The notes under the pieces: generated by a model | The model's database searches: none | Told to the model about the DNA's origin: nothing | Seen by the model: the letters and a program-made list of their open reading frames with translations, nothing else | From: Raja brachyura | Lineage: Eukaryota | Length of the DNA stretch: 64,000 nucleotides | Assembly: GCA_963514005.1 (NCBI GenBank) | Contig: OY740784.1 | Span: 100,254,001 to 100,318,000 of the forward strand | Reading direction: 5' to 3' | Translations under genes and position numbers: made by a program | In this document: in pieces, positions 1 to 32,313 of the stretch | Layout of the letters: the number at the start of each line of letters is the position of its first letter | Position numbering within the stretch: the stretch's first letter is position 1

Positions 1-1460
1 GGACTCCCCCAACATTGGGAACAATCTTCCAGCATCTAACTTGTCCAACCCCTTAAGAATTTTGTACGTTTCTATAAGATCCCCCCTCAATCTTCTAAAT
101 TCCAGCGAGTACAAGCTGAGTCTATCCAATCTTTCCTCATATGAAAGTCCTGACATCAGAGGAATCAGTCTGGTGAATCTTCTCTGTACCCCCTCTATGG
201 CAAGGATGTATTTCCTCAGATTTGGAGACCAAACCTGTACGCAATACTCCAGGTGTGGCCTCACCAAAACCCTGTACAACTGCAGTAGAACCTCCCTGCT
301 CCTATACTCAAATCCTTTCGCTGTGAATGCTAACATACCATTTGCTTTCTTCACTGCCTGCTGCACCTGCATGCCTACTTTCAATGACTGGTGTACCATG
401 ACACCCAGGTCTCGTTGCATCTCCCCCTTTCCTAATCTGCCACCATTCAGATAATAGTCTACCCTCATGTTTTTGCCACCAAAGTGGATAACCTCACATT
501 TATCCACATTATACTGCATCTGCCATGCATCTGCCCATTCACTCAGCCTATCCAAATCACCCTGCAGCCTCCAAGCATCCTCCTCACACCTAACTATACC
601 CCCCAGCTTGGTGTCATCTGCAAATTTGGAGATGTTGCATTGAATTCCCTCGTCCAAATCATTAATATATATTGTAAATAGCTGGGGTCCCAGCACTGAA
701 CCTTGCGGTACCCCACTAGTCACTGCCTGCCATTCTGAAAAGGACCCGTTTACTCCTACCCTTTGCCTCCTGTCTGCTAGCCAGTTCTCTATCCACATCA
801 ATATTGAACCCCCAATACCGTGTGCTTTAAGTTTGTATGCTAATCTCTTATGCGGGACCTTGTCGAAAGCCTTCTGAAAGTCTAGATATAACACAGCCAC
901 TGGTTCTCCCTTATCCACTCTACTAGTTACATCCTCGAAAATTCTATCAGATTTGTCAGACATGATTTACCTTTCGTAAATCCATGCTGACTTTGTCCAA
1001 TGATTTCACCAATTTCCAAATAAGCTGCTATCCCATCTTTAATAACTGACTCTAGCAGTTTCCCCACTACCGATGTTAGACTAACTGGTCTGTAATTCCC
1101 CGCTTTCTCTCTCCCTCCTTTTTTAAAAAGTGGGATTACATTAGTTACTCTCCAATCCTCAGGAACTACTCCAGAATCTAAGGAATTTTGAAAAATTATC
1201 ACTAATGCATCCACTATTTCTGTGGCTACCTCCTTGAGTACTCTGGGATGCAGACTATCTGGCCCTGGGGATTTATCGGCCTTCAATCCGTTCAATTTAC
1301 CCAACACCACCTCCCGGCTAACCTGGATTTTACTCAGTTCCTCCATCTTATTTGACCCCCTTCCACTGCTATTTCCGGCAGATTATTTATGTCTTCCTTA
1401 GTGAAGACAGAACCAAAGTAGTTATTCAATTGGTCTGCCATGTCCTTGTTCCCCATGATC
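1..1460 (-). mobile_element. CR1-clade LINE, ORF2 reverse transcriptase fragment (decayed; runs off window start)
   Basis: Minus ORF 927-1346 has KSPGPDSLHPRVLKE, PLFKKG, GNYRPVSLTSVVGKLLE and [14 protein letters not shown], all typical CR1 RT motifs; frameshifted continuation toward position 1. Confidence 0.93.
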
Positions 1461-2019
1461 AGGTGGGGATCCATTATTCCACTCTTCCTCATAAATTTGT
1501 CAAAACAGAGGTAACATGCTGGAGACAGAATGGTTCCTTACAGATCAGACCTCACCTGCTCATTGACATCATTCCATTATTTACGACAGATAATGACGGC
1601 AGAGTCAAGCATCATTATTTAAGAGACTATTTAACTGTGAAGTCCTCCTTCCATTCCCTAAATAGATTAGGGACAGCTTTACATTACAGCCATGTGAGGT
1701 TCACTAGAATTATAAACACTTGCATTTGCTCTATATGTTTGAAAGATAGGGTCTTCCATCTGCTGAAGAGGAAGAGATGAGAATTGAAGATCATCCACAT
1801 CTGCAGGAACCAATTAGATTTGATGCCATTTTACATTTACTGAGAGAAAATCATTAACCTAGTTTATTTTACATGATGCACTGTTTAACAAAATAATATT
1901 TACAATGTTTAATCACCAAAAATTGAGAGTTCTAGAGAGCTTAAAAATATAATTCATGAAAGTCTTATCAACAAATAATATTCCTTATCTGACCAGGACT
2001 ATATATTGATGAAGGGTGG

Positions 2020-12270: not shown

Positions 12271-15200
12271 ATGACAACAAAAATAAGGCCCTCATTTGTT
12301 TTTGAGTTGGAATATAAAGGGAATTAATAATCCATTAAAGTGGAGCAGGTTCTTTGCTCATTTAAAATCTCTGAAATGTGATATTATTTTCCTTCAAGAA
12401 ACTTTCCTCCGATCAAGTGAACATGTGAAACTGAAAAAAGACTTGATAGGTTAAGTATTCTGCCCCAAAAATGAGTTTAGATCACGAGGCACAGCTATTT
12501 TAATCAGGAAGGGGGTTCCATTTATCCTATCATCGACCATCACCGACCCCAGGGGAAGGTATGTAGTTGTAACAGGCAATCTAAATGGCACACAGGTGGC
12601 TCTAGCCAATGTATATGGACCAAATTGGGACAACCCATCATTTTTCTCTAGCTTCATAACATCCCTCCCAAATCTCAATGACCACCAACTGATATTAGCG
12701 GGGGATTTTAATTGTGTATTATGTCCTTATTTGGACAGATCCAACCCGAGACCTAATAATAACGTTTCAAATTCTGGTCGCTGGTATCAATTCATTTATA
12801 GAATCCTATACTCTTTTTGACCCCTGGAGAAGAAATAACTCCAAAACAAAACAATATTCCTTTTTTTCCCCAGTACACCATTCTTACTCAAAAATGTATT
12901 TGTTTCTTGTAGATAGTAGGCCTTGTCAATTCTTCCCTTCCCTCCCGCTCCACCCCTTCCCCGGGCACTTTCCCTTGCAATCGCAAGAGATGCTACACTT
13001 GTCCCTTCACTTCCCCCATCCACTCCTTTCAGGGACCCAAGCAGTCCTTCCAAGTCCGACAGAGGTTCACCTGCACCTCCTCCAACCTCATCTACTGCAT
13101 CCGTTGCTCCAGCTGATCTACATCGGTGAGACCAAGCGGAGGCTGGGCGATCGTTTCGCCGAACACCTCCGCTCGGTCCGCAATAACCAACCCGACCTCC
13201 CGGTGGCTCAGCACTTCAACTCCCCCTCCCATTCCGTATCCGACCTTTTGGTCCTGGGCCTCCTCCACGGCCAGAGTGAGCAACACCGCAAGTTGGAGGA
13301 ACAGCACCTCATATTCCGCTTGGGGAGTCTGCATCCTCTGGGCTTAAACATTGAATTTTCTCAATTCTGTTAACCCAGGCTGCCTCCTCCCCCTCCCCAC
13401 CTCTCCCTCAGCCCTCGGGCCCTGGCATTCCTTCTCTCTCTATCTCCCCCCCCACCCAAGTCGCACTAGCTTCTCATTTTATCATCAATTCCTTTATCAT
13501 CAATACCTTTTTGCATATCTTTCATTCATTGTTCTTTATCTCTCCACATCACAGTCTATATCTCTCGTTTCCCTGATCCCTGACCAAGATCTCGACCCGA
13601 AACGTCGTATATCTCCTTCGCTCCTTAGATGCTGCTGCACCCGCTGAGTTTCTCCAGCTTTTTGTGTAACCCAGGGTCCTTTCCATGGTTAACGGGAGCC
13701 AGTATAACAGTATTGTTATTTCTGACCACAGCCCTGTGCAACTAGATATAGGCTTCCTAGACTGCCCGAGACCTCGATGCACTAGGCGGTTTGATCCTCT
13801 GTTGATAACCATGGAGTCCTTCAAAAGATTTATTTCTTCACAAATAGACACAAATTAATAATATTCTGGACATGCACTTAGCGACTATCTGGGAGGCTCT
13901 CAAAGCCTACCTTTGAGGCCAGATAATCTCATATACAGCATATGAGAGGAAGAAATATAAACAACATCTGATAGAACTGTCCCTCAGTATAGGGGAAATA
14001 GACCGCTTGTATGCCAATTCGCCCGAACTTTACAAGGAGAAATTATTATTTAAAACGGAATTTGACAATTTATCCACCAGACAAACAGATCAACTAATCT
14101 TCAAATCAAAGCAGTTTTTTTATGAACACGGAGAAAAGGCAGGAAAACGTTTAGCTCACCAGATCAGGCAGTCCACAGCCGCCAGTACTATTCCTGAAAT
14201 TTTAACATCGCCGGGGGTAAAGACTACTGATCCAGATGCCATCAATGACCAGTTTAAGCAGTTTTATTTTTCCCTCTATGCTTCAGAACCACCTAGTGAT
14301 CTGTCATGTATTCCTGCCTTCTTAGACAGCCTGTACATCCCAGAAATTACTACAGAGGACCAAGCACAAAATTGACAGGGAAATATCAACTGAAGAAATA
14401 TTACAAGCAATTAAAACGATGCAGAGCAACAAAGCTCCAGGACCAGATGGTTCCAGGATTGAAATATACAAAGAGTTTGCAATCAAAGTGGCTCCAACAC
14501 TTAAATTGTTTTATCAGGAAAATTTTAGCCAACCAAAACTACCTCAAACAATGTCACAGGCAACTATATCATTCCTACTTAAAAAAGATAAAGACCCACT
14601 ATAGTGTGGTTCATACCGCCCTGTACGCTTGTTGAATTGTGATTAAAAATCCTCACACAAATCTTAGCCTCCCGTCTTGAAACAGTAGTCTCCAAAGTTA
14701 TTAACCCTGACCAAACTGGATTTATACCGGGCAGGCAGCCATTCTATAACATGCGGCACCTACTTAACGTATTGTATACACCTCACACCACAGAACAATC
14801 GTAAGTAATTGTTTCTTTAGATGCCAAGAAGGCATTCAACCATGTCGAATGGCAATATTTGTTTACTGTTCTCAAAAGATTTGGCTTTGGTCCATCATTT
14901 TTATCATAGATGAAACTATTATATTTTGTGCCAATGGCAGCTGTGCGGACCAACAATATAATCTCTGACTACTTCCAGCTCCATAGGGGCTGCAGACAGG
15001 GCTGCAGCCTTTCTCCCTACTTATTTGATTTAGCAATAGAACCACTTGCTATAGCTCTTAGGACAGAAGATGGTATTAGAAGTATCTTTCGAAGTGGTAA
15101 ATCTTACAAAGTATTGCTGTACACGGACGACCTGCTGGTATATATATCCAACCCAACTGACTCCATACCAAAGCTACTGCATATCTTAGAGAATTTTGGC

Positions 15201-16793
15201 CGCCTGTCAGGTTATAAGATAAATTACTCAAAGAGCATGCTTTTCCCAATCAATCACACTGACGGTGACTGCTCCAGCTTCCCATTTTAACTGGAGAAAA
15301 ATGTATTTACTTACCTGGGAATTAAAGTCAGCCATACCATGGGAGGGTTACACAGCCATAACTTTAAATCATTATTAGAACAAACAAATCAGGACTTCAA
15401 AAAAATGGTCAACACTACCACTCTCATTAGTAGGCTGTATCAATATCGTTAAAATGACAGTTTTACCTAGATTACTTTATCTTTTTCAAATGATCCCCAT
15501 ATTCATACCCAGGCCAACTTTTCAGCAATTAGATAGACTAATCTCATCATTTATTTGGAACAATTCAAATCCCAGGATGAAGAAAATATACTTGGAAGTT
15601 CCTAAGAAGGCGGGTGGTCTAGGTTTGCCTAACTTTATCTATTACTACTGGGCTGCAAATATTGTAAAACTTTTACATTGGACATATTCATATGAGAGCA
15701 AACAGGTCACAGACTGGGCACAGGTGAAACTCTTACCTGACCCTCTACCGATAATCACCTGCTCACTACCTTATAATCGTTAAATACACATGTCAAACCC
15801 GGTGGTTAAAACCGCGCTTAAAATACGCTTAAAACAGTTCAGGAAACATTTTGGACTGAAAGGTACTAACAGGCTTTTCCCGGTGGCAAATAATCAATTT
15901 TTTACATCCTCCATGTTAGATACTGTGTTTTCATATTGGCATAGGAATGGACTGTTATATTTTTGTGACTTGTTTACTGATGGAACGTTCACTTCCTTTG
16001 AAACGCTTGCTGAAGACCACAATATGCCCAGATCTCATTTCTTCAGGTATCTTCAAATACGTAGCTTTGCTAAAACTGTGATTCCCTCATTTCCTCATCT
16101 GTCCACTAAGAGCCAATTAGACACTACTCTGGAGTTGGACCCCTTTGACAAGAAACGTGTTTCAGCAATTTACACATTAATACAGGAATTAAAACAGATA
16201 ATCTGGGACAAAACTAAAGTGGCATGGGAGAGGGACCTGGGTGTAGAGCTTTCTGATGAGGTGTGGCGAGAGAGCTTAATTTGTATACACACCCCTTCGT
16301 TGTGTAAACGCCATGGGTTGATCCAATTTAAAGTGCTTCACCGTCTTCATTATTCAAGAGACAAACTTGCCAGAATCTTTTCTACCACATATCCTGGCTG
16401 CCCTAGATGTGGCCATAGCCCAGCCTCTGTAGGTCACATGTTTTGGACATGTCCACCTCTCAACAGCTACTGGGGAAACATATTTGAGGTATTCACCCAT
16501 ATCTGCAGACAGACTATAAATCCTGACTTGCACACAGCTATCTTTGGAATACCACCTCCAAACTGTAAGCTTACAAATTTACAAGCAAATGCTTTAGCAT
16601 TTGCATCATTGCTTGCTCGCAGGCTATCTTTTCAACTGGAAGTCAAAAAAAGCTCCATCTTTTTTTGCAGTGGTTAAAGGAGGTGCTCTCCTATTTACCC
16701 TTAGAAAAGATCAGGTATAAATGGTGCAAGGCCCGCAGAAACTTTGCTCTGATCTGGAACCCTTTTATAGATTTTATTCAAGATTTTTCCTAA
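12271..16793 (+). pseudogene. L1 ORF2p (APE endonuclease, RT, C-terminal Cys/His knuckle), disrupted
   Basis: SWNIKG, LANVYGPN, ILAGDFN, ISDHSPV, KAPGPDG, RGCRQGCSLSPYLF, LYTDD, CPRCGHSPASVGHMFWTCP. Confidence 0.92.
12921..13672 (+). mobile_element. 5'-truncated Penelope-like element (GIY-YIG endonuclease + 3' repeat) inserted in the L1 APE domain
   Basis: [18 protein letters not shown]...HFN...[14 protein letters not shown]; ends TTTTTGTGTAACCC; L1 reading ...LVDSR|VLSMVN... resumes after it; possible AGG TSD. Confidence 0.9.
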
Positions 16794-16941: not shown

Positions 16942-18591
16942 GGTTTTTTTTCTCTTTCTATTTTTTGAACCTTGGGGATGGGGAGTGGGGGTGTATACGT
17001 TTTGTACTGTTCTGTACTGTTTGTTGGTGTTCTGTGTACATTTGTGTTTATCACTTGAAAACCAAAATAAAGTTATATAAAAAAAGAGGGGGAGAGAGGG
17101 GGGGGGAGATGAGGAGGGAGAGCGGGGGGTTGGGGGGGGGGGGTGTGAAGGGGGAGAAAGGAGTGGAGACAACTTTTTTAAGAAGCCAGAGATACACAGC
17201 TGTGAAGTCCACGGACATTTAACATTACCGGTCGGTTATCCTTGGTTCTGAAAACTCCTGCTTATGTATTTCTTCCCCCAATGAGCCAATGAAAATGACT
17301 GGACAGCAAAGGTGATTAACTAAAACTACCTACGACTGCCCATATCTACATGGCGACGCCACTACAACTGCACCTATGACCACAGGATTAGCGATTATCT
17401 CCATGGTGACCAAATTTTGTTGAAAATTTTGCAGCATCCATACTGAGGCCGCGACTAGTTTGTAGAATGCGGAAACTCCTCACGACCATGAAGGAGACTC
17501 ACCTGAGACCACCAGCGAACATGTGGCGAGTGCAGAGTCTCCTGCACTTGCCTAAAAAGTCACCTAATTGGGACAGGCCCATTAGTGTGCATCCCTGCTT
17601 CCTTTCCCAGACCAACTTTGCAAGCACAATCCAAAAAAGATGAACAATCATCTCATCCTCAATGTAGCTGCCTTGTGGGCAGCGTATGCTGGGAGTGGGT
17701 CGCCAACTGTTTCTTTGACAATCAAGCCAAGTCTTTATGCTTGTTGGTAAGTTATGATGAAGATATGTTCTGCCAAATGGTTTTGACATTCTGCTTGGGA
17801 AATTGAAGATGGGAGTTCAATGCTCCTCGTCTCCTGGCTTCAATCACGCAGGCTTGAAATCACATTCATGATCTTGTAATGCTTTAATCGATCATGCAAC
17901 CTGATTTATATTCTTATCCGTACCTGGGCACACTCTAAGGATGTGTAGCCTCCACCTAACCTCTGCCCCACTGCCCCATCTCTGAAGAGTTCCCCCACCA
18001 GATTCCCTCCACCTATTTCTTACGATTGCTGTGTGAATTGTCCTGTGATTGGAATCCTACAGAGACATGGCTGCAGGAGGTTCGGGCATGGGAACTTAAT
18101 ATTCAGGGTTATACATCCTACGAAAGGACAGGCAGGTGGGCAGAGGATGGGGGGGGGGGGGGGGGCGGGTAGCTCTGCAGGCGAGGGATGGAATTCAGAC
18201 CCTTGCGAGGGAAGACATAGGGACTGATGAGGTAGAGGCACTGTGGATTGAGTTGAGCAATTGCAAAGGCAAGAAGACACTAATTGGTGTTATCTACAGA
18301 CCCCCAAATAGTAGCCTGGATGTAGGGTGTAAGTTGCAGCAGGAGTTAAAACTGGCATGTAACAAAGGTAATGCCACTGTAGTGATGGGGGATTTCAATA
18401 TGCAGGTAGACTGGGAAAATCAGGTTGGTTCAGGTCCACAAGAAAGAGAATTTGTAGAGTCCCTCCGAGAAGGATTCTTAGAGCAGCTTGTAATGGAGCC
18501 GACCAGGGAAAAGGCAATTCTGGATTTAGTGTTGTCTAATGAACCAGATTTGATAAGAGAACTAGAGGGGAAGGAACCGCTTGGAGGTAGT

Positions 18592-18723
18592 CATCTTTCG
18601 TGTGGCGTGCACAGCCTAAAGTTGTAGGACAACTTGTTGTATTTGATCTTCCATTTGTGCATGTTGAGTTGATTACATTAGTCAAAACAGGGCGGACCAC
18701 GTGATGATGCAATCGTCCACCCC
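18592..18723 (-). mobile_element. 132-nt non-autonomous retroposon headed by an HDV/CPEB3-like ribozyme
   Basis: Flanked by an 11-bp TSD, TTGGAGG(T/C)AGT (18581-18591 and 18724-18734); interrupts the CR1 motif PLGGS|DDNM. Confidence 0.85.
18671..18723 (-). ncRNA. Putative HDV-like (CPEB3-type) self-cleaving ribozyme, minimal form lacking P4
   Basis: GGGGUGG-AC-GAUUGC-AUC-AUCACGU-GGU-CCGCCCU-GU-UUUGA-CUAAU-GUAAUC: P1 7 bp with G1-U wobble, P2 6 bp, P3 3 bp, L3 one change from UUCACGU, J4/2 CUAA. Confidence 0.75.
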
Positions 18724-20751
18724 TTGGAGGCAGTGATGATAATATGATAAGTTTTAATCTGCAATTTGAGAAGGAGAAGGTTAAATCGGAAGTGTCAGTG
18801 ATGCAGTTGAACAAAGGGGACTATGAATGCATGATGAAGAGCTGGACAAGGTAGATTAGAAAGGGATCCTAGCAGGAATGACGGTGGAACAGCAATGGCA
18901 GGAATTTCTGGGCATAATCCGGAAGACGCAGGATCATTTCATTCCCAAAAGGAAGAAACATTCTAAGGGGAGTAGGAGTCAACTGTGGCTGATGAGAAGT
19001 TAGGGATAGAATAAAACTAAAAGAAAAGATGTATAACACAGCAAAGAGTAGCCGGAACCCAGAGGATTGGGAAACTGTCATAGGACAACAGAAGGAAACA
19101 AAACGGGCAATACGGGCTGAAAAGATGAAGTATGAGGGGAAGCTGGCCAGGAATATAAAGAAGGACAGAAAAAGCTTCTTTAGATATGTTAAGGGAAAAA
19201 GAATAGCAAAGCCAAATGTGGGTCCCTTGAAGGCAGACACGGGTGAAATTATTATGGAGAGCAAGGAAATGGCAGAAGAGTTGAACAGGTACTTCGGATC
19301 TGTCTTCACTGATGAAGACACAAACAATCTCCCAGATGTACTGGAGGACAGATGATCTAAGTGGGTAGTGGAACTTAAAGACATTTTCATTAGGCGAGAA
19401 ATAGTATTGGGTAGGTTAATGGGCCTTAAGGATGATAAATCTACTGGGCCTGATGGTCTGCATCCCAGGGTCCTCAGGGAGGTGGCTCTAGAAATAGTGG
19501 ATGCATTGGTGATCAATTTCCAATGTTCAATAGATTCAGGATCAGTTCCTGTGGATTGGAGGATGGCTAATGTTATCCCACTTTTCAAGAAAGGAGAGAG
19601 AAAACGAGGAATTACAGACCAGTTAGTCTGACTTTGGTGGTGGGAAAGATGCTGGAGTCAATTATTAAAGAGGTCATAATGGGGCATTTATATAACAGTA
19701 AAAGGATTAGTCCAAGTCAGCATGGATTTATGAAAGGGAAATCATGCTTGACTAATCTTATGACTTTTTTTTAGGATATGACAAGTAAAATGGAGCCAGT
19801 GGATGTAGTGTATCTCGACTTTCAGAAAGCCTTTGATAAGGTCCCACACGGGAGACTGGTGACTAAAATTAGAGCACATGGTATGGTGTTGACATGGATA
19901 GAAAATTGGTTGGCAGACAGGAAGCAAAGAGTACGAGTGAATGGGTCCTTTTCAGAATGGCAGGAAGTGGCGAGTGGAGCGCCGCAAGGCTCGATGTTGG
20001 GGCCGCAACTGCTTACCATATATATTAATGAGTTGGAAGAGCACCTTAGGAGCAACACTAGCAAGTTTGCGGATGACACAAAGCTGGGTGGCAGTGTGAA
20101 CTGTGAAGAGGATGTTACGAGGTTGCACGGTGATGTGGACAGGTTGAGTGAGTGGGCAGATGTGTTGCAGATGCAGTTTAATATAGATAAATGTGAGGTT
20201 ATCCACTTTGATGGCAAAGACAAGGGGGCAGATCATTATCTCAATGGGGTTAGGTAAGGTAAAGGTGAGGTACAGTGAGACCTGTGTGTCCTTGTACACC
20301 AGTCACTGAAAGTTGGTGTGCAGTAACAGCAGGCAGTGAAGAATGCTAATGGAATGGTGGCCTTCATAACAAGTGGATTTCAGTATAGGAGAAAAGAGGT
20401 TCTTCTGCAGTTGTATAGGGCTCTGGTGAGACCACATCTGGAGTATTGTGTACAGTTTTGGTCTCCTAATTTGAGGAAGGACATCCTTGTGATTGAGGCA
20501 GTGCAGCGTAGGTGCACGAGATTGATCCCTGGGATGGCGGGACTGTCATATGAGGAAAGATTGAAAAGACTACGCTAGTATTCACTGGAGTTTAGAAGGA
20601 TGAGAGGGGATCTTATAGGAACATATAAATTTATAAAAGGACTGGACAAATAGATGCAGGAAAGATGTTCCCAATGTTGTGTGAGTTCAGAACCAGGGGC
20701 CACAGTCTTAGAATAAAGGGGAGACCATTTAAGACTGAGGTGATAAAAAGC

Positions 20752-21950
20752 TTTTTCTTTTTTTTTAAAATGTATTTATTAGAAGTACATTACATTTCAA
20801 TGGTGCCTTTTTACACGTTCCCAAAATTATTAAAACATTTTTGTACAACTTCTTTTTTTTTTAGAAAGAAATGAGAATGAAAGATGTAGTGAAGAGTAAA
20901 GAATAGTCTAGTGAGTGTAGTGTAAAGAAAGAAATAAGTGAGAAAGTGAAGCAGAATAAGTGAGAATGTGAAGTGAGATTCTCACACGCCACAAGTCGAT
21001 ATTTTTTTAATGTTCTTAATCATTTTTCACTCAAACCCAGAATTTTTAATTTTACGATGCCATTACACCCCATGAATCCACAAGATCAATAAATGGAGGC
21101 CAACTCGTTAAGAATTTGTCTTTTGTTTCTATTAGGAGGAGTCTCATTTCTTCCGAATGGGCCGTTTCCAACATATTACCAATCCATATTTTGAGTGTTG
21201 CTATAGTAGCCTTTTTCCAGAATTTGAGTATGAGTTTTTTCGCTATTATTAAACCATAATTAAAAAATGAGATTTGTTTCCATCTCCTAATACTCCAAAG
21301 ATAATAATTTCCATGCTAGGTTCCATTTTTATCTTAAACTAGTGAATATATCAAATATATCACACCAAAATCTTTGAAGTTTTGTGCAAGTAAGGAAAGA
21401 ATGTGTGAAGTTGGCATTTTGAGAAAGGCATTTATCACAGATGGGAGAGATTTTTGAATAAAATTTATTCAACCTAACTTTTGAATAATATAATCTGTGT
21501 AATATTTTAAATTGAATTCAATTATGTCTAGTGTTAATCGAACATTTATGTTTATATATCAAATACCTCTCCCACGTTTCTTTAGAAATTTTTATCATTA
21601 AATCTTTTTCCCACTCTTCTCTAATTGCCTCTGTCAATGGCAATTCTCTATTAAGAAAACTGTTATATAGATATGATATTAATTTTTGTGAGTCCACCTT
21701 AATACCCATTGCTTCTTCCAGTGGGTCTATCGTTATATTCTGTAATCTTGGTATATATTTTTTTATAAAGTCACATATCGGTAAATATTTGAAGTATTGG
21801 TTATTATTCAGATTAAATTTTGATTTTAATTGGTGAAATGATAATAAATTTCCCATTTCATACATGTCACCCAACTTTTTAATTCCCAATCTTTCCCATT
21901 GTCTATATGTTTTATCCATAAAAGATGGTTTAAATACCTGATTATTCACT
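20752..21950 (-). mobile_element. 5'-truncated L1 3' end inserted in a T-run of the CR1
   Basis: Minus strand encodes NNQVFKPSFMDKTYRQWERLGIKKLGD...FKYL..CDF...WEKDL...CSINTRH; AATAAA and poly(A) at the left end; CR1 resumes at TTTTTCACCCAGAGAGTTGTG. Confidence 0.88.
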
Positions 21951-22519
21951 ATTTTTTTCACCCAGAGAGTTGTGAATTTGTGGAATTCCCTGCCACAGAG
22001 GGCAATGGAGGCCAAATCACTGGATGGATTTAAGAGAGAGTTAGATGGAACTCTAGGGGCTAGTGGAATCAAGGGGATATGGGGAGAAGGCAGGCATGGG
22101 TTATTGATTAGGGACGATCAGCCATGATCACATTGAATGGCGGTGCTTGCTCAAAGAGCCAAATGGCCTCCTCCTGCACCTATTTTCTGTGTTTCTATGT
22201 TTTCAACTAATTTACCCATTGTGAAGCCATTCTCTGAGGTGGTATTATGAGGGCCCAGGCACACTGCGGTCATTACCCTCATTGTCATAATCCCCATCCT
22301 TTCCCTCCATGCTCAACACATATTGACATTGAGGATATATATATAATCTAGTATGATACCTTGCAATGATCAAAGTGAAAATATTTCTATTTTGTGGAAC
22401 TGCAGGAGGACTGATAAAAAAGGGGCTCCTTCCATTCCACTGGCAATTTTCTTAGTCCTTGCTGTTTTTTCCAAAACAAAGCGATGAATAACATTAAGTA
22501 ACGTCTTCATAATCGTCCC

Positions 22520-24160
22520 TTCACACGTTAAGAGGAAGAGCTAAAATATCTATGGTAGGTCGAGCGTGGGGTAGGAATAGGAAAGGGAGGACTGTGTGGT
22601 TTGTAACAACATGTGTGTGTGCAGATATTAGCGATGACACAAAACTTACCTTCAGCGGCGCTGCAGATCTGCCACGGGCCATGTGTGCAATTTTGGCGCC
22701 TTTGAGGGGAGGGGCGGGATTAAAATGCAGGTTTGTATCGCTTGTCGGAGAGGGATTTCCTCGCGCTGCTAGTCGATCAAGAAAAATCGATCGGACTTCC
22801 ATTCCCGGTTTTATTTTATTAAAAAATCACTGGACTATTTAATAGTTGGATTAAAGAAAAATGCGACTTTGAACGCCCTGAACACCTACAACGTGGGATC
22901 ATAATATCAGAACAAAACAAAAGGTGAGTCATTTATTTCTCATATAATATTGCTTCTTCTGGTGGCTTTAGCCTAATTTTACGAAGCGAAAATGTTATTT
23001 GGGCCCCATACGAACCGGCAGTGTCTTTGCCTGCCGATATGGGGTTAAAATTCACGGCAACGGTAATGTTCCAAACAATCGCATTCCAGAAACACCCACT
23101 TGCAAGATGATTTAAATCCTTTTTTTTGGACAATCATGTCATAAATTGTCTTTATTTTGTGTAATTGTCTATCCATAGACAATATTTTTATACTAAATAT
23201 GCACAACAGTTTTAGCCACGTGTATTGTGCAAAAAATAATCATTGTAATATTGATTATATTGAGAGTGGATGTTTCTAGATTAATTTATGGGAATTAAAC
23301 ATTAAATTCCTTCCATCTGGCAAATAATTTCATGACAGTGAGATTTAAAAATCATGTTATATTTTGAATCCTTGTGTGAATGGGTTTGTTATTTGCATAC
23401 TTAGGCTATTAAAAAAATCCTTTTCTTAAGAAATGGATAGATGTTTAGATGTAGTAATTGAATTTAGATGAATTGATAAATTGATTTGATGAAACTGATA
23501 AATATGAATTTTTTGTTGGGTATTTACTTTTTGTTTTAGCGTTTAACTTCATCATTTCTACCTTTTTTGTAAAACTGCAAATAATAACTGATTATAATAT
23601 GCCAATGTACCAGCTAGCAACTGATCTTCTCCATAAAGACTTGGTCTATTACTCAAAATTGTAATGTATTTACCTATCTGTTACGGACTTCCAGCATATA
23701 ATACAATAATATTAAAGTTCTGATCTTAAGAATATCACATTTTTTGAATTTTCAGGGCAGTCTGGGTGTTTATTACTATTCCCTTACAATGATCAATTTT
23801 GTAATTAGCTCCAGTTAGGTAACTAACTAATTATATGCTTTAATTTTAGGTCACGCAAGTAAGATATTTGTTTCAGAATGGTTCAATCTATAATAACTGA
23901 AAATTGCATTCAGTTAGGGTAATTTTTAAGAAAATTACGGGCTTTTGACTGTCCTTGATAACAGCTTTTGTGTTAAGTCAATGGAAAAGCAATAGGGAAC
24001 AAGATGCTAATTTATGAGTACGAAATTGGCCATAACTTGTTTAATACTGAAGATATAAAAGTGATTTCGGTATCAAATTAAACTTATTTTTATGCTTTAT
24101 CTGATGGGATAAATTACAGACTAGATGTTTTAAATCTCAAAATTTTGTAACATTGCTACA
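22520..24160. mobile_element. Unclassified interspersed repeat, probably a non-autonomous DNA transposon
   Basis: CpG-rich left part and AT-rich right part with GGCCATAACTT/AAATTTTG motifs typical of DNA-transposon subtermini; ends not resolved. Confidence 0.35.
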
Positions 24161-24869
24161 GATATGTGTTTCTTGGTGCATGTCGGTGAGTTCCTTTGAG
24201 GAGACACTTTGCCAAATTTGTTTGTCAGTCTGCTTTCCCCTTCTCTCTCACGAGTGTGTCAGAAAGAAGGAGGGAGATTGAAGGAGCTATGTTTAAATTG
24301 TTACAGAGTTCACCTTCACATATCTCAGATCATCATAACATTTATGTCAGCATCCCTCAGTTCTACATCAATTCTCATTGCAGGCAGCCACCTCCTGCCA
24401 GGATTATCTGATGGCTGCTCTTTTGTGCCTCCGCTCTGTCTCTTGGTCTACTCCCCTGGCCTCTATCTCCCACACCAAGACTTCAATATCACAATGTGTC
24501 AGTCCACTAGCTCTCTCCCTTTCCCCTGTCGTCTCTCCCTCGACCATGACAGTTATCATTTGTTCTGTGGCTCTGTCAAAGTCAAATTGTATCCTTGAAA
24601 GTATAGGTTGCTTTCCACAGTCCCAAAATCCATGAACTACTTTGTAAATGATTGACTCTTGGACAAATTACCTCTCCAGAACAGTGGCGTGGCTGTTTGC
24701 CTGCACAAAAAATATGAAACATTGAATTAGTTTACAAATACTAAAGAAGACGTCTCTTTCCTAGTGAAACGTCAAACATTTATTTAATCTATATTCAAGA
24801 AAGGAGATAAGGCACAGAGAAATGGATAATAACGTGTATTTATGCAGCTCCATGAACATTATGTACAAA

Positions 24870-25600
24870 AATACTGCTCTGGGGTGTGTTGTGGCACAGG
24901 GAGTTCCAGGACTGCAGGTACATACTGTAGTTCCTTGAAGGTGGTGTCACAGGCAGATCGGGCAGTCAAAAATGCTTTTGGCACATTGACCTTCATCAGT
25001 CAGAGTATTGACTATAGAATTCATGTTGCAGTTATACAAATCATTGGTGAGGCCCCATTTAGAGTATTGTGTTCAGTTCTGTGCACCGTGTTAACAGGAA
25101 AGATTTTGTAAAACTGAAAGGGTACAGAGAAAATCTATGAGGATATTGCCAGGACTGAAGAGTCTGAGCTATAGGGAGAGGTTGAGCAGGCCAAGTCTCT
25201 ATCCCTTGAAATGCAGGAGAATGAGGGATAATCTTATAGAGGTGTGTAAAATTATGAGAGGAATAGATTGGGTATACACACAGAGTCTCTTGCCCAGAAC
25301 AGGGGAATCGAGAACCAGAGGACATATGTTTACGGTTAAGGAGGATTTTAATAGGAATCTGAGGGGTAACCTTTTCATACAAAGGGTGGTGGGTGTGTGG
25401 AAAGAGCTGCCAGAGGAGGCAGTGAAGGCAGGAATTATTGCAACATTTAAGAAATAATTGGACAGGTACGTGGATTGGACAGGTTTAGAGGGATATGGGA
25501 CAACCGCAGGCAGGTGAGACTCGTGTAGATGGGACATGTTGGTCGGTGTGGCGAAGTTGGGCCGAAGGGCTTGTTTCCATGCTGTTTGACTATAACAATT
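24870..25600 (+). mobile_element. CR1 3' fragment
   Basis: RILPGLKSLSYRERL...RTRGH...FIQRVVGVWKELPEE; 3' UTR GGGCCGAAGGGCTTGTTTCCATGCTG. Confidence 0.9.
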
Positions 25601-26214
25601 ATAGAAAGTTACATTACAAACAGCAACTCTGCCTATCAATTCCATGCTGGCTAAACTGAACCAGTTATAAATAATACTTAAATGTAATGTCATTTTTTTG
25701 GCAATGAACATTTCAGGAAAATACTTCCCGTTTCATGGCATTCTTTTAATAAAAAAATGCAAAATTAATTCAAATAGTAATTAACGTAATTGGTATTTCC
25801 TGTGGCTGAGATTTTAAACTCAGTTAATAATTTGAAATATCATGTATTTGACCAGAACCAATAGGTATTGGGCTCATAGCTGCAAAGTGGAAACAACATG
25901 AGTAGATAAACATTGTCAGCTGCCGATGCTTCATATGTTTTGCTGCAATGTTTGCTCATTATATTCCACTTCTGAAAATTGTGTAATTGAAGTCCATGGA
26001 CTGATGGCAGTCTCTAAAAATGTACTGTCCTAAATGTGGCTGAGAATTATACTCCAACAAACTAATGTCACTGCAGTGCAAAACAACAGTCCATCATCAA
26101 CATTCCATCCCCAGGCAATCAGGGAAGAATTAAACTAAAGTACAATATGCTCTGTGGCTGAGCATAGGACTGGATTATAAATTTCCAAATATTTTAGTCA
26201 GAAATTCCCCTCGA

Positions 26215-27160
26215 CAAGGTCAAGAGAGTCAAGAGTCAAGAGTGTTTCATCGTCATATGTCCATGATAGAACAATGAGATTCTTATTTGCAGCAGCAAAA
26301 AGGATTTCCAAGGACTCATTGTAATAAACCCAGTGACTCACCATTCCCAAAGGCAAAGGAAACATTTTTTCAGCATCCACCATGTCAAAGATGTTTCATT
26401 GAAGCGACCTCTTATTCCTTTGAATTCCATTATATGCCAAATCCATTTAGCTTTGTATTCCTTTGCAGATTTCTTGTCCATTACTTAATCTGTCTATATC
26501 GTTTTGCTAGCTCCAGATGTCCACATCACAGTTTATTTTCCCACCTAGCTTTTAATTATCAGTAGATTTGCCTATTGACCATCACTCATGGACATGAATA
26601 GGCATTGGTAATGGTTTATTATTGTTACATGGACTGATATACAGTGAAAAACATGGTTTTGCATGCTCTTCAGTCAAATCATACCAAATATGAATACAAT
26701 CAAGCCATATGCAAGAACAACAGATATAGCAAAGAGAAAAATAACCAGAATGCAGAATATAGCATTAAAGCTACAAAGGGTAGCTTCAGCATCGAGAGCC
26801 TCGATCGCCTCGACGCAGCGGGAGAATAAGCAAGGAAGAGATAAGACTTTTTGCCTTCCATCTCAGTGAGGAGGTACCTGGAGATTCACTGTGATGGATG
26901 TTTGTGTTAAATTGTGTCCATTGTGTGTTTTTTGTTGCTTTTTTTCTGTCATGACTGCAAGGTACGCAATTTCGTTCAAATTTGAATGACAATAAAGGAA
27001 ATTCAATTCAATTCAAAAATGCTACATTTAAGTTTTGTATTAACTTATTTTATTGCAGATCATAAATCTAATCATAAATCTAATGACTACAGAAACTTAA
27101 TTTTGTTTGAACCTCAATGAGGTTCAAATGACAATAAATGGTATTGTATTGTATTGTAAT
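26215..27160. mobile_element. Cluster of Rex1/Babar-type 3' tails and derived short repeats
   Basis: AATTTCGTTC...AATGACAATAAA followed by short tandem tails (AATTC)n and (TATTG)n; (CAAGAGT)n tail in reverse orientation at 26220. Confidence 0.55.
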
Positions 27161-27584
27161 GATAGCATGTTTGGTTTAACTTTGTTGTCTGTCCATTAAC
27201 CTCCTCAATCCATGCAGTGTAATCTCCGGGATCGCATCTCACAAACTGCCCAGACACACCAGATCTATTGCTTCTCCCTTTGCAATTCAGCTAGTTACAA
27301 CAAAAACTCAAACAAATTTAAGAAAGACTTCATTAACACATGGTTTTCTAATTGTCCCATTATTACCATGTTCATTATAGATTCAAGCATTTTCCCTATT
27401 ACTGAAATATAGGTAATTAATCTTTGGGTCCTTGTTTTACCTCTGTCAGAATGTCAGGCTATATTTGCTATCTTCCATCATTGGGACCGTTTAAAATCAA
27501 GGGAAAAAAAAGAAACTGCTGGAAGGACTCAGCAGCTCAAACAGCATATGTGACTTTAAAGGAATGGTTAATGTTTCAGGTGAA

Positions 27585-29372
27585 GATCACAAGGTCATAA
27601 GATCATAAGTGATAGGAGAAGAATTAGGCCATTCGTCACATCAAGTCTATTCCGCCATTCAATCATGGCTGATCTATCTCTCCCTCCAAACCCCATATTC
27701 CTGCCTTCTCCCCATAACCTCTGACACCTGTACTAATCAAAAATATATTTATCTCTGCCTTAAAAATATCCACTGACTTGGCTTCTACAGCCTTCTGTAG
27801 CAAATAATTCCACAGATTCCCTGCTTTCTCTACACGACCTGCCCTTCCACCTATTTTCGTACCATCCACAAACTTGGCCACAAAGCCTTCGATCCCCTCA
27901 TCCAAATCATTAATATACAAAGTGAAGAGCAGTGGCCGCAGCACCGACCCCTGCAAAACACCGCTAGTCACTGCAGCCAACCAGAAAAAGCCCCATTTAT
28001 TGCCACTCTTTGTCTTCTGCCATCCAGCCAATCTGCTATCCATGCCGGTATCTGCCCTTTGATACAATGGGCTCTCATCTTCCTTAGCAGCCTCACGTGT
28101 GGCACATTATGAAAGGCTTTCTAAAAATCAAAGTGAGCAACATCTGCTGATTCTCCTTTGTCTGTCCTGCCATTTACTTCTTCAAAGAATTCCAGCAGAT
28201 GTGTCAAGCAGACCTCCCCATCACAAAGCCATGCTAACTTTGGCCTATTTTATCATTTTTTAAGTAATCCATAACCTCATACTTTTCAATCTTACCAACC
28301 ACCGAAGTCAGACTAACCAGCCTATTATTTGCACTATTCTCCTTTTCTCCCTTCTTGTGCAGCAGGGTAATATTGGCAATTCTCCAATCATCTGGGAAAC
28401 GCTCCTGTCTCTAGTGATCCTTGACATATCACTGTCAATGCTTCTACAATCTCTAAAGCCACCTCTTTCAGAACACTAGGGTGCAGTCCATCTTGTCCAG
28501 GTGACTTATCCACCTTCTGTCCTTTCAGCTTCCCAAGTACCTTTTCCCTAGTAATATCCACTCCACCAAGTTCCATCCCTGACTCTCTTGAATTTCAGGC
28601 ACATTGCTGGTATCTTCCACTGTGAAGACTGTTGCATAAAAGTTATTCAGCTCCTCTGCCATTTCTTCATTCCCCATTATCACATCTCCTGCCCAACTTC
28701 CACTCTAGCCTCTTTATATAACTGAAGAAACTCTTGCTATTCTCTTTTATATTATTGGCCATCTTACCTTCATATTTCATCTTTTCTCCCCATATTGCCT
28801 TTTTAGTTACCTTCTGTTGTTCTTTCAAAGCTTCCCAATCCTCTGGCTTCCCATTAATCTTTGCTATGTTATACACCTTCTCTTTTAGTTTTATACTGTC
28901 CTTGACCTCCCTTGTCAGCCACGGTCGCCTCTTTCTCCCCCTGGAATCTTTCTTCGTCTTTGAAATGAAAAGACCCTGCATCTTCCAGATTATTCCCTGA
29001 AATTCCTGCTATTGCTTTTCCACCATCACCCCTGCTAGGGTACCTCTCCAGTCAAATTTGGCCACTCCTCCCTCAGGCCTCTGTCTGTAGTCCCCTTTTC
29101 TCAGCTGCAATACTGACACATATGATTTCGCCTTCTCCCTCTCAAATTGCAGATCATGTTGTGGTCACTAGCTCCTAATGGTTTCATCACCTTGAGTTTC
29201 CTTATCAAATCCGGTTCATTATATAACACTAAATCCTGAATTGCCTTTTCCCTGGAAGGTTACAAGCAGCTCTAAGAATCCATCTCAAAGGCACTCTACA
29301 AATTCCCTTTCTTGGAGCCCAGTACCAACCTGATTTTCCGAGTCTACTTGAATATTGAAATCTCCCATAACC
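27585..29372 (-). mobile_element. CR1 LINE ORF2 with internal deletions
   Basis: [59 protein letters not shown]. Confidence 0.9.
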
Positions 29373-29389
29373 TCAAAATTCTCCCATGC

Positions 29390-30190
29390 TGATCCTACAT
29401 CAGCATTGAAAGGGAAGACGGAAGGTAGCCAATATAAAGAGAGGAGGAGGGTTAAGGCAGGCTTGTGTGGGTGACTGGTAGACCAAGGAGGGGTGAAGGA
29501 TAATGGACAGTTGGAAACTGGTGGGAGAAGAAGAGGGGTGGATTTGGAGACAGAGGTGGGTGATATGTGGAAGTTGACAAGGAAAAAATAAAAAGCAGAT
29601 TCAAGGGACTGCAAATGTTGGGGTTACCTGAAATTGAGCATGTTCAAATCATTCAGTTGTGGACTAGAAAATTGGGCGTTGCCCCTCTAGTTTATGGTAG
29701 CCCTTACCCTGGCTGTGGAGTAGCTTGATGATGGGCTGGTTGGAGTGGGAATTGGAAAAGGAGTTGAAATGGCATGCATCTGGAAACACCAGATACCTAT
29801 TGAGGTGCGAGTGCAGGTGTTCTGCAAACTGGTTACAAAATCAGTGCCTGGATTTGTCAGGGCAAAGAACAGTTGCAGACAAAGTTGAAGAGTCATGTGA
29901 ATTGTTGCCTTACTTGGAAGGGGCATTTAGCTCTCTTTATATTGGAGGCGGAGGAGCTGTTGGGACAAATATTGGATCTCCTATCCTTGTAGGGAAAAAT
30001 GCCAGGGGTCAGGGAAAGGTGGGGTGGAGAGGGTTCAGCATGTCTGGGATTCACAAAGAGAATGATCCCTGGGTAAGTTGGAGAAGGGAGTAGAGGGGAA
30101 GGTGTGGTTCATGATGGGATCCCAAAGCAGTGAAGCTAGTAGGGTGAAAGGTGAGCACCAGAGGAACTCTATCTCTGTTCTCAGAGAGGT
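29390..30190 (-). mobile_element. Decayed Penelope-like fragment
   Basis: [16 protein letters not shown] and a degenerate GIY-YIG C-terminus on the minus strand, homologous to 61100-61700. Confidence 0.7.
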
Positions 30191-30581
30191 AACAATGGAC
30201 AAAGTCAAACGTCATGGCCCACAGGTGGCCAGAGCGCAGGTGTGGGTCATTGGTGGCAGTGGCACCGCCACCTGAAAACGGCCGAGGAAGCTGTGTGGGC
30301 CAGCGGTGGTGGCAGAAGGGCTGGCTTGTATTTGCAAGGGAGGTGACGCGAGCTGGAGAAGGCATGGGAAGCTGCGGTAGGTTAGTCGTCAAAAATCAAA
30401 ATCTAAAACTAAAACCAAAATCTGTTATAGAGGTCCGTTAACATGATGGTTTACTGTATACACATTTCCATTCCCCCTGCCCTTGCTTCAGCCTGCACAT
30501 TTTACTTTAGGTGCTTACATATGTCCTCATGCCGTCAAACCATCCCTTAATGGGAACAACTTTTATCTATTTACTCCAACT

Positions 30582-31062
30582 AAGTCAAAAGTCAAAGTCA
30601 AAGTCAAACAAACTTTATTGTCATTTAGAAATACATTGATATATGCAGTTCCAAACGAAATTACGTTGCATTTGGCTCTCTGTGCAACACGATAAATTAA
30701 CAGAAGGATAGGCATGGATAAAAAGGATAAAAGGATAAATAGACAATGGTGGCAGCCCATTACATGGCATTCAGGAGTCTGATGGCTCGTGGGAAGAAGC
30801 TGTTGCAGAACCTTGATGTTCTGCTCCTTATGCTGCGATATCTTTTTCCCGAGGGCAGCAGAGTGAACAGTCCATGATGGAGATATGTGGGGTCTTTTAT
30901 AATACTGCTGGCCTAGACACGCAACGTTTGGTCGCAATATCCCCGATTGAGGGGAGAGAGGTCCCGATGATTTTTTCCGCTGTCCTCACCACTCTCTGCA
31001 CAGACTTCCAGTCGGAGGCTTTACAGTCCCCAAACCAGACAGAGATACAGCTGGTCAGAATA
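30582..31062 (-). mobile_element. Rex1/Babar LINE 3' end
   Basis: ILTSCISVWFGDCKASDWKSVQRVVRTAEKIIGTSLPSI; 3' UTR AATGACAATAAA plus (TTTGAC)n tail. Confidence 0.88.
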
Positions 31063-32130
31063 CCAGAGCCACAACTAAGCCACATGATCTTGTACACCAC
31101 TATCAAATCTATCTCATTATACTTACTAAGTAGAACAACCTTCAGATCCTCCAGTCTTAACGTTGTAGCTAGAATCTATTATCCTCGGGAACTTTTCTTG
31201 TAAAACTACTATGCCTGCTCTCTAGAGACATTGCATCCTTATAAAGCGCAGTAACCAGAGTTGGATGCAATATCACAGCTGTGACCAAACCTTTGTTTGA
31301 TAAAGGCTCAACATAAACTCTCTGCCTTGTTACAACCTCTCTTTACAAAGATTGGATTCTCTGACAAATGAATCGTCATTTGAAGTAATATATTTGAAGT
31401 AATCTTCATGCAAAATGTTGTTTATTTGCAGAATGCATGAACAGACAGGATGGTGGAAAAAGTGTTCATTCTTTGCTGAATGCAGCATACCACTCACACA
31501 TACAGCCTGTTGTCCCCAAATCTTGCAATTAATTGTTTTAGTTACACAAAGCCAATCTCTCCAGTTGAGAGCCAATGGTTTAGGTTTAGGTTTATAATTG
31601 TCACGTGTACAGAGGTATAATGAAAGCTTTGCTTTGCATGCTATTCAATCAGATCAGATAATACTATATACAAATACAATCAAGTCAAACTCAAGTGCAA
31701 TAGAAACATAATGCAGAATATTGGTGTGACAATGCCTGCAACCAGGGTACCAGGCAAGATGTAATTTGGTCACCATGGTGGGCCAGGCCAAGCCCTGCCT
31801 CCAAGGCAACCTACCAAATTGTCAGCAATATCTCCACCTTTGCCTTGGGTCAATTTTTTGGAGGCATTAAGTGGGGTCCCGGTGGGAATAGTGGAGAGGT
31901 CGGTGTGGCAGTCGATGAAGGCGTTGACCTGCGGACGAGGACAGAGCACTTGGGAATGAGGACGCTGCTGACGGGGGGAGTAACAAAGGAGGACCCGGCG
32001 TGGGGGGACTGGCGTGAGGGTGGCGGGAAGGGGAAGGCAGGAATCAATTGAAATTAAATTAAGAATAAAAAAATTATTAATTTTGAGATTAAATATAAAT
32101 TATGCAAGATCTATAAGAAAATACAATGGT

Positions 32131-32312
32131 CTTCTTCTTATTGAGTCAACACATAAGATTAGAAGTGGTTCAGCCAGAGCTGAACACACTTCCCGGCATC
32201 TGCGTACAATGGTATCTGTCTTGCGCTTCTTGTGCTCCTTGTGCTCCTTGTGCGTGGTGGTGGAAAGATTGGTGGAAACAGGGCCGCGATGTGAACACTC
32301 TTTCCTTGACCC
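32131..32312 (-). mobile_element. 182-nt non-autonomous retroposon headed by an HDV/CPEB3-like ribozyme, with (GAA)n tail
   Basis: Minus strand starts GGGTCAAGGAAAGA and ends AATAAGAAGAAG; TGGT duplicated at 32127-32130 and 32313-32316; internal (GCACAAGGA) repeats. Confidence 0.75.
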
Positions 32313-32313
32313 T
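32262..32313 (-). ncRNA. Putative HDV-like (CPEB3-type) ribozyme, minimal form lacking P4
   Basis: (A)GGGUC-AA-GGAAAGA-GUG-UUCACAU-CGC-GGCCCU-GU-UUCCA-CCAA-UCUUUCC: perfect 7-bp P2, P3 GUG/CGC, L3 UUCACAU, P1 6 bp. Confidence 0.75.

What the first reader, a model, noticed from the sequence alone, without database searches (positions are those of the whole stretch)
18592..32313. Two unrelated mini-retroposons share a covarying minimal CPEB3/HDV-like ribozyme head: candidate ribozyme-headed SINE class
Seen: the elements at 18592-18723 and 32131-32312 (both minus strand) have different helix sequences (P1 GGGGUGG/CCGCCCU vs GGGUC/GGCCC; P2 GAUUGC/GUAAUC vs GGAAAGA/UCUUUCC; P3 AUC/GGU vs GUG/CGC). 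They keep the same order of parts and the same unpaired core: L3 xUCACxU, GCCCU-GU, a 5-nt linker in place of P4, and CxAA. Neither has a tRNA head or an ORF; both have direct-repeat flanks. Established: the human CPEB3 ribozyme has L3 UUCACGU followed by P1'-GU, and HDV-like ribozymes process the 5' ends of R2, RTE and Ingi/L1Tc non-LTR elements. Inference: these are promoter-less, non-autonomous parasites of an Ingi/Vingi- or RTE-like LINE that cut themselves out of host transcripts. That would make a mobile reservoir of ~52-nt CPEB3-like ribozymes in a cartilaginous fish. The repeat families may already be catalogued, but the ribozyme may be unannotated.
Basis: partly seen in the sequence, partly recalled or inferred. 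Interest (0 to 1): 0.88.

Follow-up and report, generated by a model that had tools for sequence, protein, structure and literature searches.

The report
Vingi mini-retroposons carrying CPEB3-like ribozyme heads
These two short repeats, present in thousands of copies, are cut-down versions of longer retrotransposons (likely of the Vingi group) and begin exactly at an RNA fold predicted to cut itself, a fold that likely shares its origin with the mammalian CPEB3 ribozyme.

Summary
Both elements are real, abundant retroposons: at least 12,039 copies of A and 1,367 of B, with (AAG)n tails and 7-13 bp target duplications. They are neither unrelated nor a new SINE class. Each joins the first ~70 nt and the last ~40-75 nt of its own ~3-kb LINE, found here in the same genome (APE + RT + CCHC, no RNase H; Vingi-like). 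That makes them SIDE/NARTc-type internal deletions.

The head folds as an HDV-like double pseudoknot with CPEB3's core, and its P4 is reduced to 5 nt. The helices covary across five families. Copies picked by their tail alone start at P1's first G (24 of 30 and 26 of 30), the predicted cleavage site. Both window copies carry core mutations. Cleavage is untested, and "promoter-less" is unproven.

Sister LINE heads that keep P4 reach 65.8 bits on the mammalian CPEB3 model, and one family shares CPEB3's P4 stem sequence. The published Vingi-2_Gav 5' end matches the CPEB3 consensus at 52 of 54 compared positions. The CPEB3 ribozyme, described as mammal-only, is therefore likely an exapted Vingi 5' end. 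I found no paper making this link.

The parts
18592..18723 (-). Element A: non-autonomous, internally deleted Vingi-like retroposon (~131 nt)
18671..18723 (-). A head: predicted P4-less HDV/CPEB3-type ribozyme. This copy has lost 1 nt at P3 and has the first L3 U changed to A; predicted catalytic C at 18681
18654..18723 (-). Part of A shared with the 5' end of its partner LINE (58 of 70 identical to L198)
18594..18632 (-). Part of A shared with the 3' end of the same LINE: last ORF codons, stop, short 3' UTR, start of the AAG tail (33 of 39 identical to L196)
18724..18734 (-). Upstream copy of A's 11-bp target-site duplication, abutting G1
18581..18591 (-). Downstream copy of A's target-site duplication (10 of 11 match)
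32131..32313 (-). Element B: non-autonomous, internally deleted Vingi-like retroposon (~175 nt; 183 here); no clear duplication at this copy
32262..32313 (-). B head: predicted P4-less ribozyme with a 6-bp P1. This copy has G1 changed to A and the L3 G changed to A; predicted catalytic C at 32272
32240..32312 (-). Part of B shared with the 5' end of LINE copy L233 (64 of 73 identical)
32131..32205 (-). Part of B shared with the 3' end of the same LINE: ORF C-terminus, stop, 3' UTR, (AAG)3 tail

Best explanation
A and B are short internally deleted copies of two different LINEs, likely of the Vingi clade, whose shared 5' end is predicted to fold into a P4-less CPEB3-type HDV-like ribozyme that likely cuts itself out of read-through transcripts at its first G. 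Steps: (1) an element is transcribed from an upstream or internal Pol II source (inferred); (2) the head folds (P1, P2, P3, a one-pair P1.1, and a 5-nt loop for P4; supported by covariation) and cleaves just before G1 (inferred from the fold and from where copies start); (3) the partner LINE's APE-RT protein recognises the retained 3' end and copies the RNA into the genome by target-primed reverse transcription, leaving an (AAG)n tail and a 7-13 bp duplication (ends and duplications shown, protein action inferred). The head came with the LINE: the partner LINEs already lack P4.
For: Partner LINEs carry both ends of each element: L199, L196 and L197 for A, L233 for B, with its own target duplication; 13 further loci share B's last ~75 nt. 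Pieces of these and sister LINEs hit Exo_endo_phos_2 and RVT_1, and no RNase H model, including a 578-aa RT-to-stop stretch of a sister family. In samples chosen by a tail word only, 24 of 30 A and 26 of 30 B copies align from nt 1-4, and a duplication abuts nt -1 in 19 of 30 each versus 0 of 30 for a shifted control. No letter lies between the duplication and G1 in 39 of 49 A and 20 of 29 B copies; an extra G occurs in 2 and 2. The majority letters pair at all P1-P3 positions in A and B; the predicted catalytic C is kept in 70 of 71 and 73 of 75 copies. Across 13 heads of 5 families, 93.5% of 200 cells pair and 11 of 17 pairs change on both sides; covariation 0.664 against 0.216 shuffled and at most 0.160 slid. 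G1.U, U20, G25, a P1.1 of one G-C plus U-U, a 4-nt J4/2 and the catalytic C match CPEB3 as described in PMC4836649 (passages). Families E and G have L3 UCC with GG, the others UUC with GU, so P1.1 covaries too (2 copies of E, 1 of G). Ribozyme-headed internal deletions are active in R2 SIDEs and NARTc/SIDER (PMC3414825, PMC4035085, passages).
Against: No cleavage was measured, and only assembled contigs were available, which cannot show RNA ends; many run past the 5' end into flanking sequence. The combination of no P4, a one-pair P1.1 and, in B, a 6-bp P1 has no tested precedent in what I read. Minimum-energy folding does not give the active fold (pseudoknots not modelled). Two of the five measures do not exceed the shuffles (43/500, 289/500), and the rows were hand-picked and related. 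Shared non-CpG variants are only slightly rarer in A's head than in its body (2 of 54 versus 8 of 77 columns). B's head-to-ORF link rests on one copy. Clade assignment was not tested against reference Vingi, Ingi or RTE proteins. Both window copies are damaged; G1A greatly lowers CPEB3 activity (PMC8233481).
Confidence: 0.7

Rival explanations
1. The head is mainly an internal Pol II promoter with its start at +1, as Pr77 is in L1Tc. The P4-less fold is kept as a protective or protein-binding 5' structure and cleaves little or not at all in A and B.
For: L1Tc's 77-nt head is both promoter and ribozyme (PMC4035085 passages). Bipartite LINEs are thought to be Pol II transcribed (PMC5786205). The fold can protect 5' ends like a cap (PMC13708176). 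B's P1 has only 6 bp. A precise start site would also make copies begin at nt 1.
Against: Catalytic-core letters outside the helices are invariant across families whose helices differ. The boundary falls exactly on the HDV cleavage position. Extra 5' Gs, the trace expected from copying a cap (recalled), are rare: 2 of 49 and 2 of 29.
Confidence: 0.22
2. These are a new class of SINE in which unrelated elements independently captured or evolved a ribozyme head.
For: The A and B partner proteins are only 37% identical and were never grouped in 200 bootstrap trees, yet both have the same kind of 5-nt P4 remnant (UUCGA, UUCCA), so convergence or head swapping between lineages is possible.
Against: Each head continues directly into a LINE ORF in its partner. 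At least six other LINE-linked heads in the genome have the same core. The AU test does not reject a single origin of P4 loss (p 0.085).
Confidence: 0.06
3. The fold is a chance or pattern-matching artefact.
For: Rfam does not hit A, and scores the window's B below its cut-off. The descriptor was written after the fact.
Against: 0 hits in 40 shuffles; covariation across families; 32 genomic relatives over the CPEB3 gathering score.
Confidence: 0.02

Closest known systems
R2 SIDEs (Drosophila) and NARTc/RIME/SIDER (trypanosomatids)
   Same: Short internal deletions keeping a 5' HDV-like ribozyme and the LINE 3' end; moved in trans (PMC3414825, PMC4035085; passages read).
   Different: Vertebrate-type genome, dispersed, 10^3-10^4 or more copies, only 131-175 nt long, P4 reduced to 5 nt, parent LINE lacks RNase H.
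Vingi LINEs and their non-autonomous derivatives (Vingi-1_EE derivatives, Vingi-2_Gav, SINE2-1_AMi)
   Same: Compact single-ORF APE-RT LINE without RNase H (PMC13708176 passages); known to spawn internally deleted copies (PMC5786205, main text read). The Vingi-2_Gav 5' end printed in that paper's supplement has the same head.
   Different: [quoted passage not shown] These families could not be checked against Repbase or Dfam.
Mammalian CPEB3 ribozyme (Rfam RF00622)
   Same: Same P1/P2/P3 layout, L3 UUCACGU, GU at P1.1, G1.U, 2-nt J1/2, C-N-A-A. Sister heads score up to 65.8 bits; family I has the same 7-bp P4 stem letters.
   Different: CPEB3 is a single conserved intronic copy with P4. A and B lack P4, differ in helix sequences and are mobile.
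Minimal HDV-like and theta ribozymes
   Same: HDV fold without P4, catalytic C first in J4/2 (PMC10879173 passages).
   Different: Those are almost all in gut phages beside tRNAs; that paper's search of its eukaryotic set reported none. Here the P4-less form heads eukaryotic retroposons and their LINEs.

Membership tests
HDV-like ribozymes | P1, P2, P3 of the nested double pseudoknot can pair and covary | tested here: met
HDV-like ribozymes | Catalytic C first in J4/2; G1.U at the cleavage site; U20/G25 in L3; P1.1 | tested here: met
   Family majority letters against PMC4836649; both window copies deviate in L3, and B also at G1
HDV-like ribozymes | 7-bp P1 as in the CPEB3 layout | tested here: inconclusive
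   7 bp in A, 6 bp in B
HDV-like ribozymes | Mg2+-dependent self-cleavage before G1, lost on C-to-U | not testable with these tools
   No assay; contigs only. Indirect: copies start at G1
Minimal HDV-like ribozymes | P4 absent | tested here: met
   5 nt between GU and the catalytic C, no hairpin predicted
CPEB3 ribozyme, RF00622 | Score at or above the gathering cut-off of 35 bits | tested here: inconclusive
   Window B 25.7 and window A none; intact A copy L012 none; other B copies up to 37.4 and P4-bearing relatives up to 65.8
CPEB3 ribozyme, RF00622 | Single copy in a CPEB3 intron | tested here: not met
   Dispersed repeats
SIDE / bipartite non-autonomous LINE | 5' end and 3' end come from one LINE, with the ORF deleted | tested here: met
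   A: three LINE copies with both ends; B: one copy
SIDE / bipartite non-autonomous LINE | Target duplication and tandem-repeat tail of target-primed insertion | tested here: met
   Exact duplications of 7-13 bp in 49 of 65 A and 29 of 53 B full-length copies
SINE in the strict sense | Head derived from tRNA, 7SL, 5S or snRNA | tested here: not met
   No tRNA and no such Rfam hit; the head is LINE-derived
Vingi clade (parent LINEs) | Compact single ORF with APE and RT, no RNase H | tested here: met
   ~2.9-3.1 kb copies L091 and L199; Pfam on pieces; all copies are broken, so 'single ORF' is inferred
Vingi clade (parent LINEs) | 5' end like a named Vingi element | tested here: met
   By-eye match of families C, F and I to Vingi-2_Gav as printed
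Vingi clade (parent LINEs) | RT phylogeny: inside Vingi, sister to Ingi | not tested
   No reference proteins were fetched; the tree holds only this genome's families

The most novel reading that the evidence does not exclude
Vingi retrotransposons generally start with an active HDV-like ribozyme, and the mammalian CPEB3 ribozyme is an exapted 5' end of an ancient Vingi insertion. In this genome two Vingi lineages have shrunk it to a 52-54 nt P4-less form, spread in more than ten thousand copies, over a thousand of them letter-perfect, any of which could cut a host pre-mRNA.
Probability: 0.6. Interest if true: 0.87.

Novelty: new variant of a known kind. Interest (0 to 1): 0.73.

Why it matters
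The CPEB3 ribozyme is tied to memory, and a 2021 study states it has not been found outside mammals, leaving no outgroup (PMC8233481). These LINE heads supply outgroups and a testable origin from a transposon. They also add Vingi to the clades with 5' ribozymes, which bears on Vingi-based gene-insertion platforms that keep the native 5' UTR (PMC13708176). P4-less HDV folds were known from phages and metagenomes; here they would be native to a eukaryotic genome at very high copy number, giving a natural series (no P4, short P4, long P4; one- or two-pair P1.1) for structure-function tests.

Tried and rejected
1. Expression and RNA 5' ends: the run search gave only assembled contigs whose RNA status is mostly a guess. 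Four runs were laid; three hold many copies and one holds 2 contigs, but contigs show neither ends nor strand, so this is no evidence on cleavage.
2. More B-headed LINEs: a head-plus-NxEG pattern gave only short B copies; 1 of 20 longer B-partner loci had the head on the LINE; a junction word found only that copy.
3. Family I (the CPEB3-like P4): none of 8 loci has a sense ORF after the head; 3 of 8 have Vingi-like ORF pieces upstream on the opposite strand, so its LINE link is indirect.
4. One or two losses of P4: unresolved (0 of 200 bootstraps join A and B; AU p 0.085; 15 of 25 rows used).
5. Energy folding did not recover the active fold.
6. tRNA head: none.
7. Literature: 'CPEB3'+'Vingi' gave 0 papers; 'Vingi'+'ribozyme' gave 6, of which I read 3 and none names a Vingi ribozyme; searches showed no such link in their listings. 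Kojima 2011, Ruminski 2011 and Webb 2009 are not held; they, their supplements, patents, Repbase and Dfam could already hold part of this.
8. Earlier scan findings: none.
Full report
Observation. Both elements are in the sequence on the minus strand: A at 18592-18723 and B at 32131-32313. An Rfam scan of 15,000-35,000 hits only B, with the CPEB3 ribozyme model at 25.7 bits, below the cut-off. A minimal HDV descriptor, written after I had seen the elements, finds these two sites in the window and none in 40 shuffled windows. A has an 11-bp target duplication; the window's B copy has no convincing one.

They are abundant retroposons. Similarity searches gave 2,923 and 2,543 candidates. Exact tail words occur 12,039 times for A and 1,367 times for B, with 0 in the reversed control; these are lower bounds. 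I took the first 30 loci of each tail search, chosen without regard to the head. 24 of 30 A copies and 26 of 30 B copies align from nt 1-4; one more A copy has a full head behind an insertion. A duplication abuts nt -1 in 19 of 30 of each family and in 0 of 30 for a shifted control. Among all distinct full-length copies held, exact duplications of 7-13 bp were found in 49 of 65 (A) and 29 of 53 (B), with nothing between the duplication and G1 in 39 and 20 of them (this set includes loci picked by similarity). Copies differ from the column majority by a median 7.6% (A, 45 copies) and 5.0% (B, 41 copies). 1,320 places match the 54-nt head of copy L012 letter for letter.

The fold. By column majority over 71 A and 75 B heads, A is P1 GGGGUGG/CCGCCCU, P2 GAUUGCA/UGCAAUC, P3 ACC/GGU, and B is P1 GGGGUC/GGCCCU, P2 GGAAAGA/UCUUUCC, P3 GCG/CGC. 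Both have a 2-nt J1/2, L3 UUCACGU, GU, a 5-nt stretch in place of P4, and C-N-A-A. 20 of 71 and 14 of 75 copies keep every pair and core letter. This is the CPEB3 layout (G1.U, U20.G25, P1.1 of one G-C and one U-U, catalytic C opening a 4-nt J4/2; PMC4836649, passages) without P4, as in minimal HDV-like ribozymes (PMC10879173, passages). On 13 hand-picked heads from five families, 93.5% of cells pair and 11 of 17 pairs change on both sides; three of five measures beat all 500 shuffles and two do not. In A, the only shared non-CpG variants in the head fall in J1/2 and the second J4/2 letter (2 of 54 columns, against 8 of 77 in the body; weak). The window copies are damaged: A has lost a P3 base and its first L3 U, B has G1 and the L3 G changed to A. 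G1A strongly lowers CPEB3 activity (PMC8233481, passages).

The parents. Searching the genome with RF00622 listed 41 matches of 59 scored, 32 over the cut-off, best 65.8 bits. One heads a 2.94-kb LINE copy with endonuclease, RT and CCHC motifs, an AAG tail and a duplication (L091). A protein search from it revealed further families D-H with similar short 3' ends. Targeted patterns then found the partners. For A, 8 loci continue from the head into an endonuclease frame, and 3 of them (L196, L197, L199) also end in A's tail. For B, 13 loci share its last ~75 nt, which encode the ORF's C-terminus; one copy, L233, has B's head, ORF, tail and a duplication. Pfam finds APE and RT domains and no RNase H in the pieces scanned. 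Size, domains and 5' end fit Vingi as described in PMC13708176 (passages) and PMC5786205 (main text and supplement passages). The clade was not tested against reference proteins. The two partner proteins are 37% identical over 343 columns. They never group in 200 bootstraps, but the AU test does not reject grouping (p 0.085), so P4 was lost twice, swapped between lineages, or lost once.

Mechanism. Shown: both ends come from a LINE, copies start at G1, and insertion leaves tails and duplications. Supported by covariation: the fold. Inferred: cleavage before G1, release from read-through RNA, and mobilisation by the partner's protein. The main rival is a +1 internal promoter with a fold that no longer cuts, as the L1Tc head doubles as a promoter (PMC4035085, passages). 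The scarcity of extra 5' Gs argues mildly against capped templates (the expectation is recalled). Sequencing runs gave contigs only and settle nothing.

Comparison. Ribozyme-headed internal deletions are known as R2 SIDEs and NARTc/SIDER (PMC3414825 and PMC4035085, passages; PMC6765202 and PMC8256844, review passages), and Vingi is known to make bipartite derivatives. So this is not a new SINE class. Three things were not found in print by my searches (three key papers, patents and repeat databases unseen): a ribozyme at Vingi 5' ends, a P4-less HDV fold heading eukaryotic retroposons, and the link to CPEB3.

The CPEB3 link. Family I heads carry the same 7-bp P4 stem letters as the Rfam consensus; copy L064 matches 54 of 67 ribozyme positions by my count. 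These hits were found with that model, so some selection applies, and family I is tied to a LINE only indirectly. Independently of that search, the Vingi-2_Gav 5' end printed in the supplement of PMC5786205 matches the Rfam consensus at 52 of 54 positions outside the inner P4 (by eye); the paper does not remark on it. Helix letters are free to vary in this fold, as A and B show, so such identity points to common descent. [quoted passage not shown] I therefore consider it likely that CPEB3's ribozyme is an exapted Vingi 5' end; the mammalian locus itself was not examined.

Verdict. Real feature; new variant of a known kind; interest 0.73. Cleavage assays and a reference phylogeny are the decisive missing steps.

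Noticed in passing
G000 loci L091, L127-L145, L193-L233: At least eight distinct Vingi-like LINE families coexist in this genome (33-58% protein identity), all ending shortly after the stop codon and most with an AAG tail; heads of D and H were not seen.
   Followed up: partly
L133:~616-720(+), L135, L141:~613-689(+): Families E and G have L3 starting UCC and a GG junction (two-pair P1.1, HDV-type), while A, B, C, F and I have UUC and GU (one pair, CPEB3-type); E has a long P4.
   Followed up: partly
L080:~1511-1600(+): A ~90-nt family C derivative (head joined directly to tail), a third independent internal deletion.
   Followed up: no
L298 (=L064), L295, L301: Family I heads lie beside Vingi-like ORF pieces on the opposite strand; in L298 the head abuts the piece, as a twin-priming 5' inversion would give.
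   Followed up: partly
PMC5786205 supplement: The body of alligator SINE2-1_AMi is a CPEB3-like ribozyme sequence with an 18-nt P4 but altered P1 and L3 letters, possibly an inactivated ribozyme behind a tRNA head.
   Followed up: no
window 18671-18723 and family A: The P4 remnant could form one U-A pair closing UUCG (A) or UUCC (B); in A an alternative GU/AC pairing would trap the catalytic C.
   Followed up: no
window 32226-32252: B's body has a short tandem unit (about 9 nt) whose copy number varies; the window copy has one extra unit.
   Followed up: no
runs X1, X4, X6: Family A copies occur in contigs of at least three other coded organisms, so the family is not confined to this genome.
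   Followed up: partly
window 18100-20257, 12455-16677, 53067-53492: A is inserted into a degraded CR1-like LINE; the window is otherwise mostly LINE and Tc1-like fragments (names recalled from ORF motifs, not searched).
   Followed up: no
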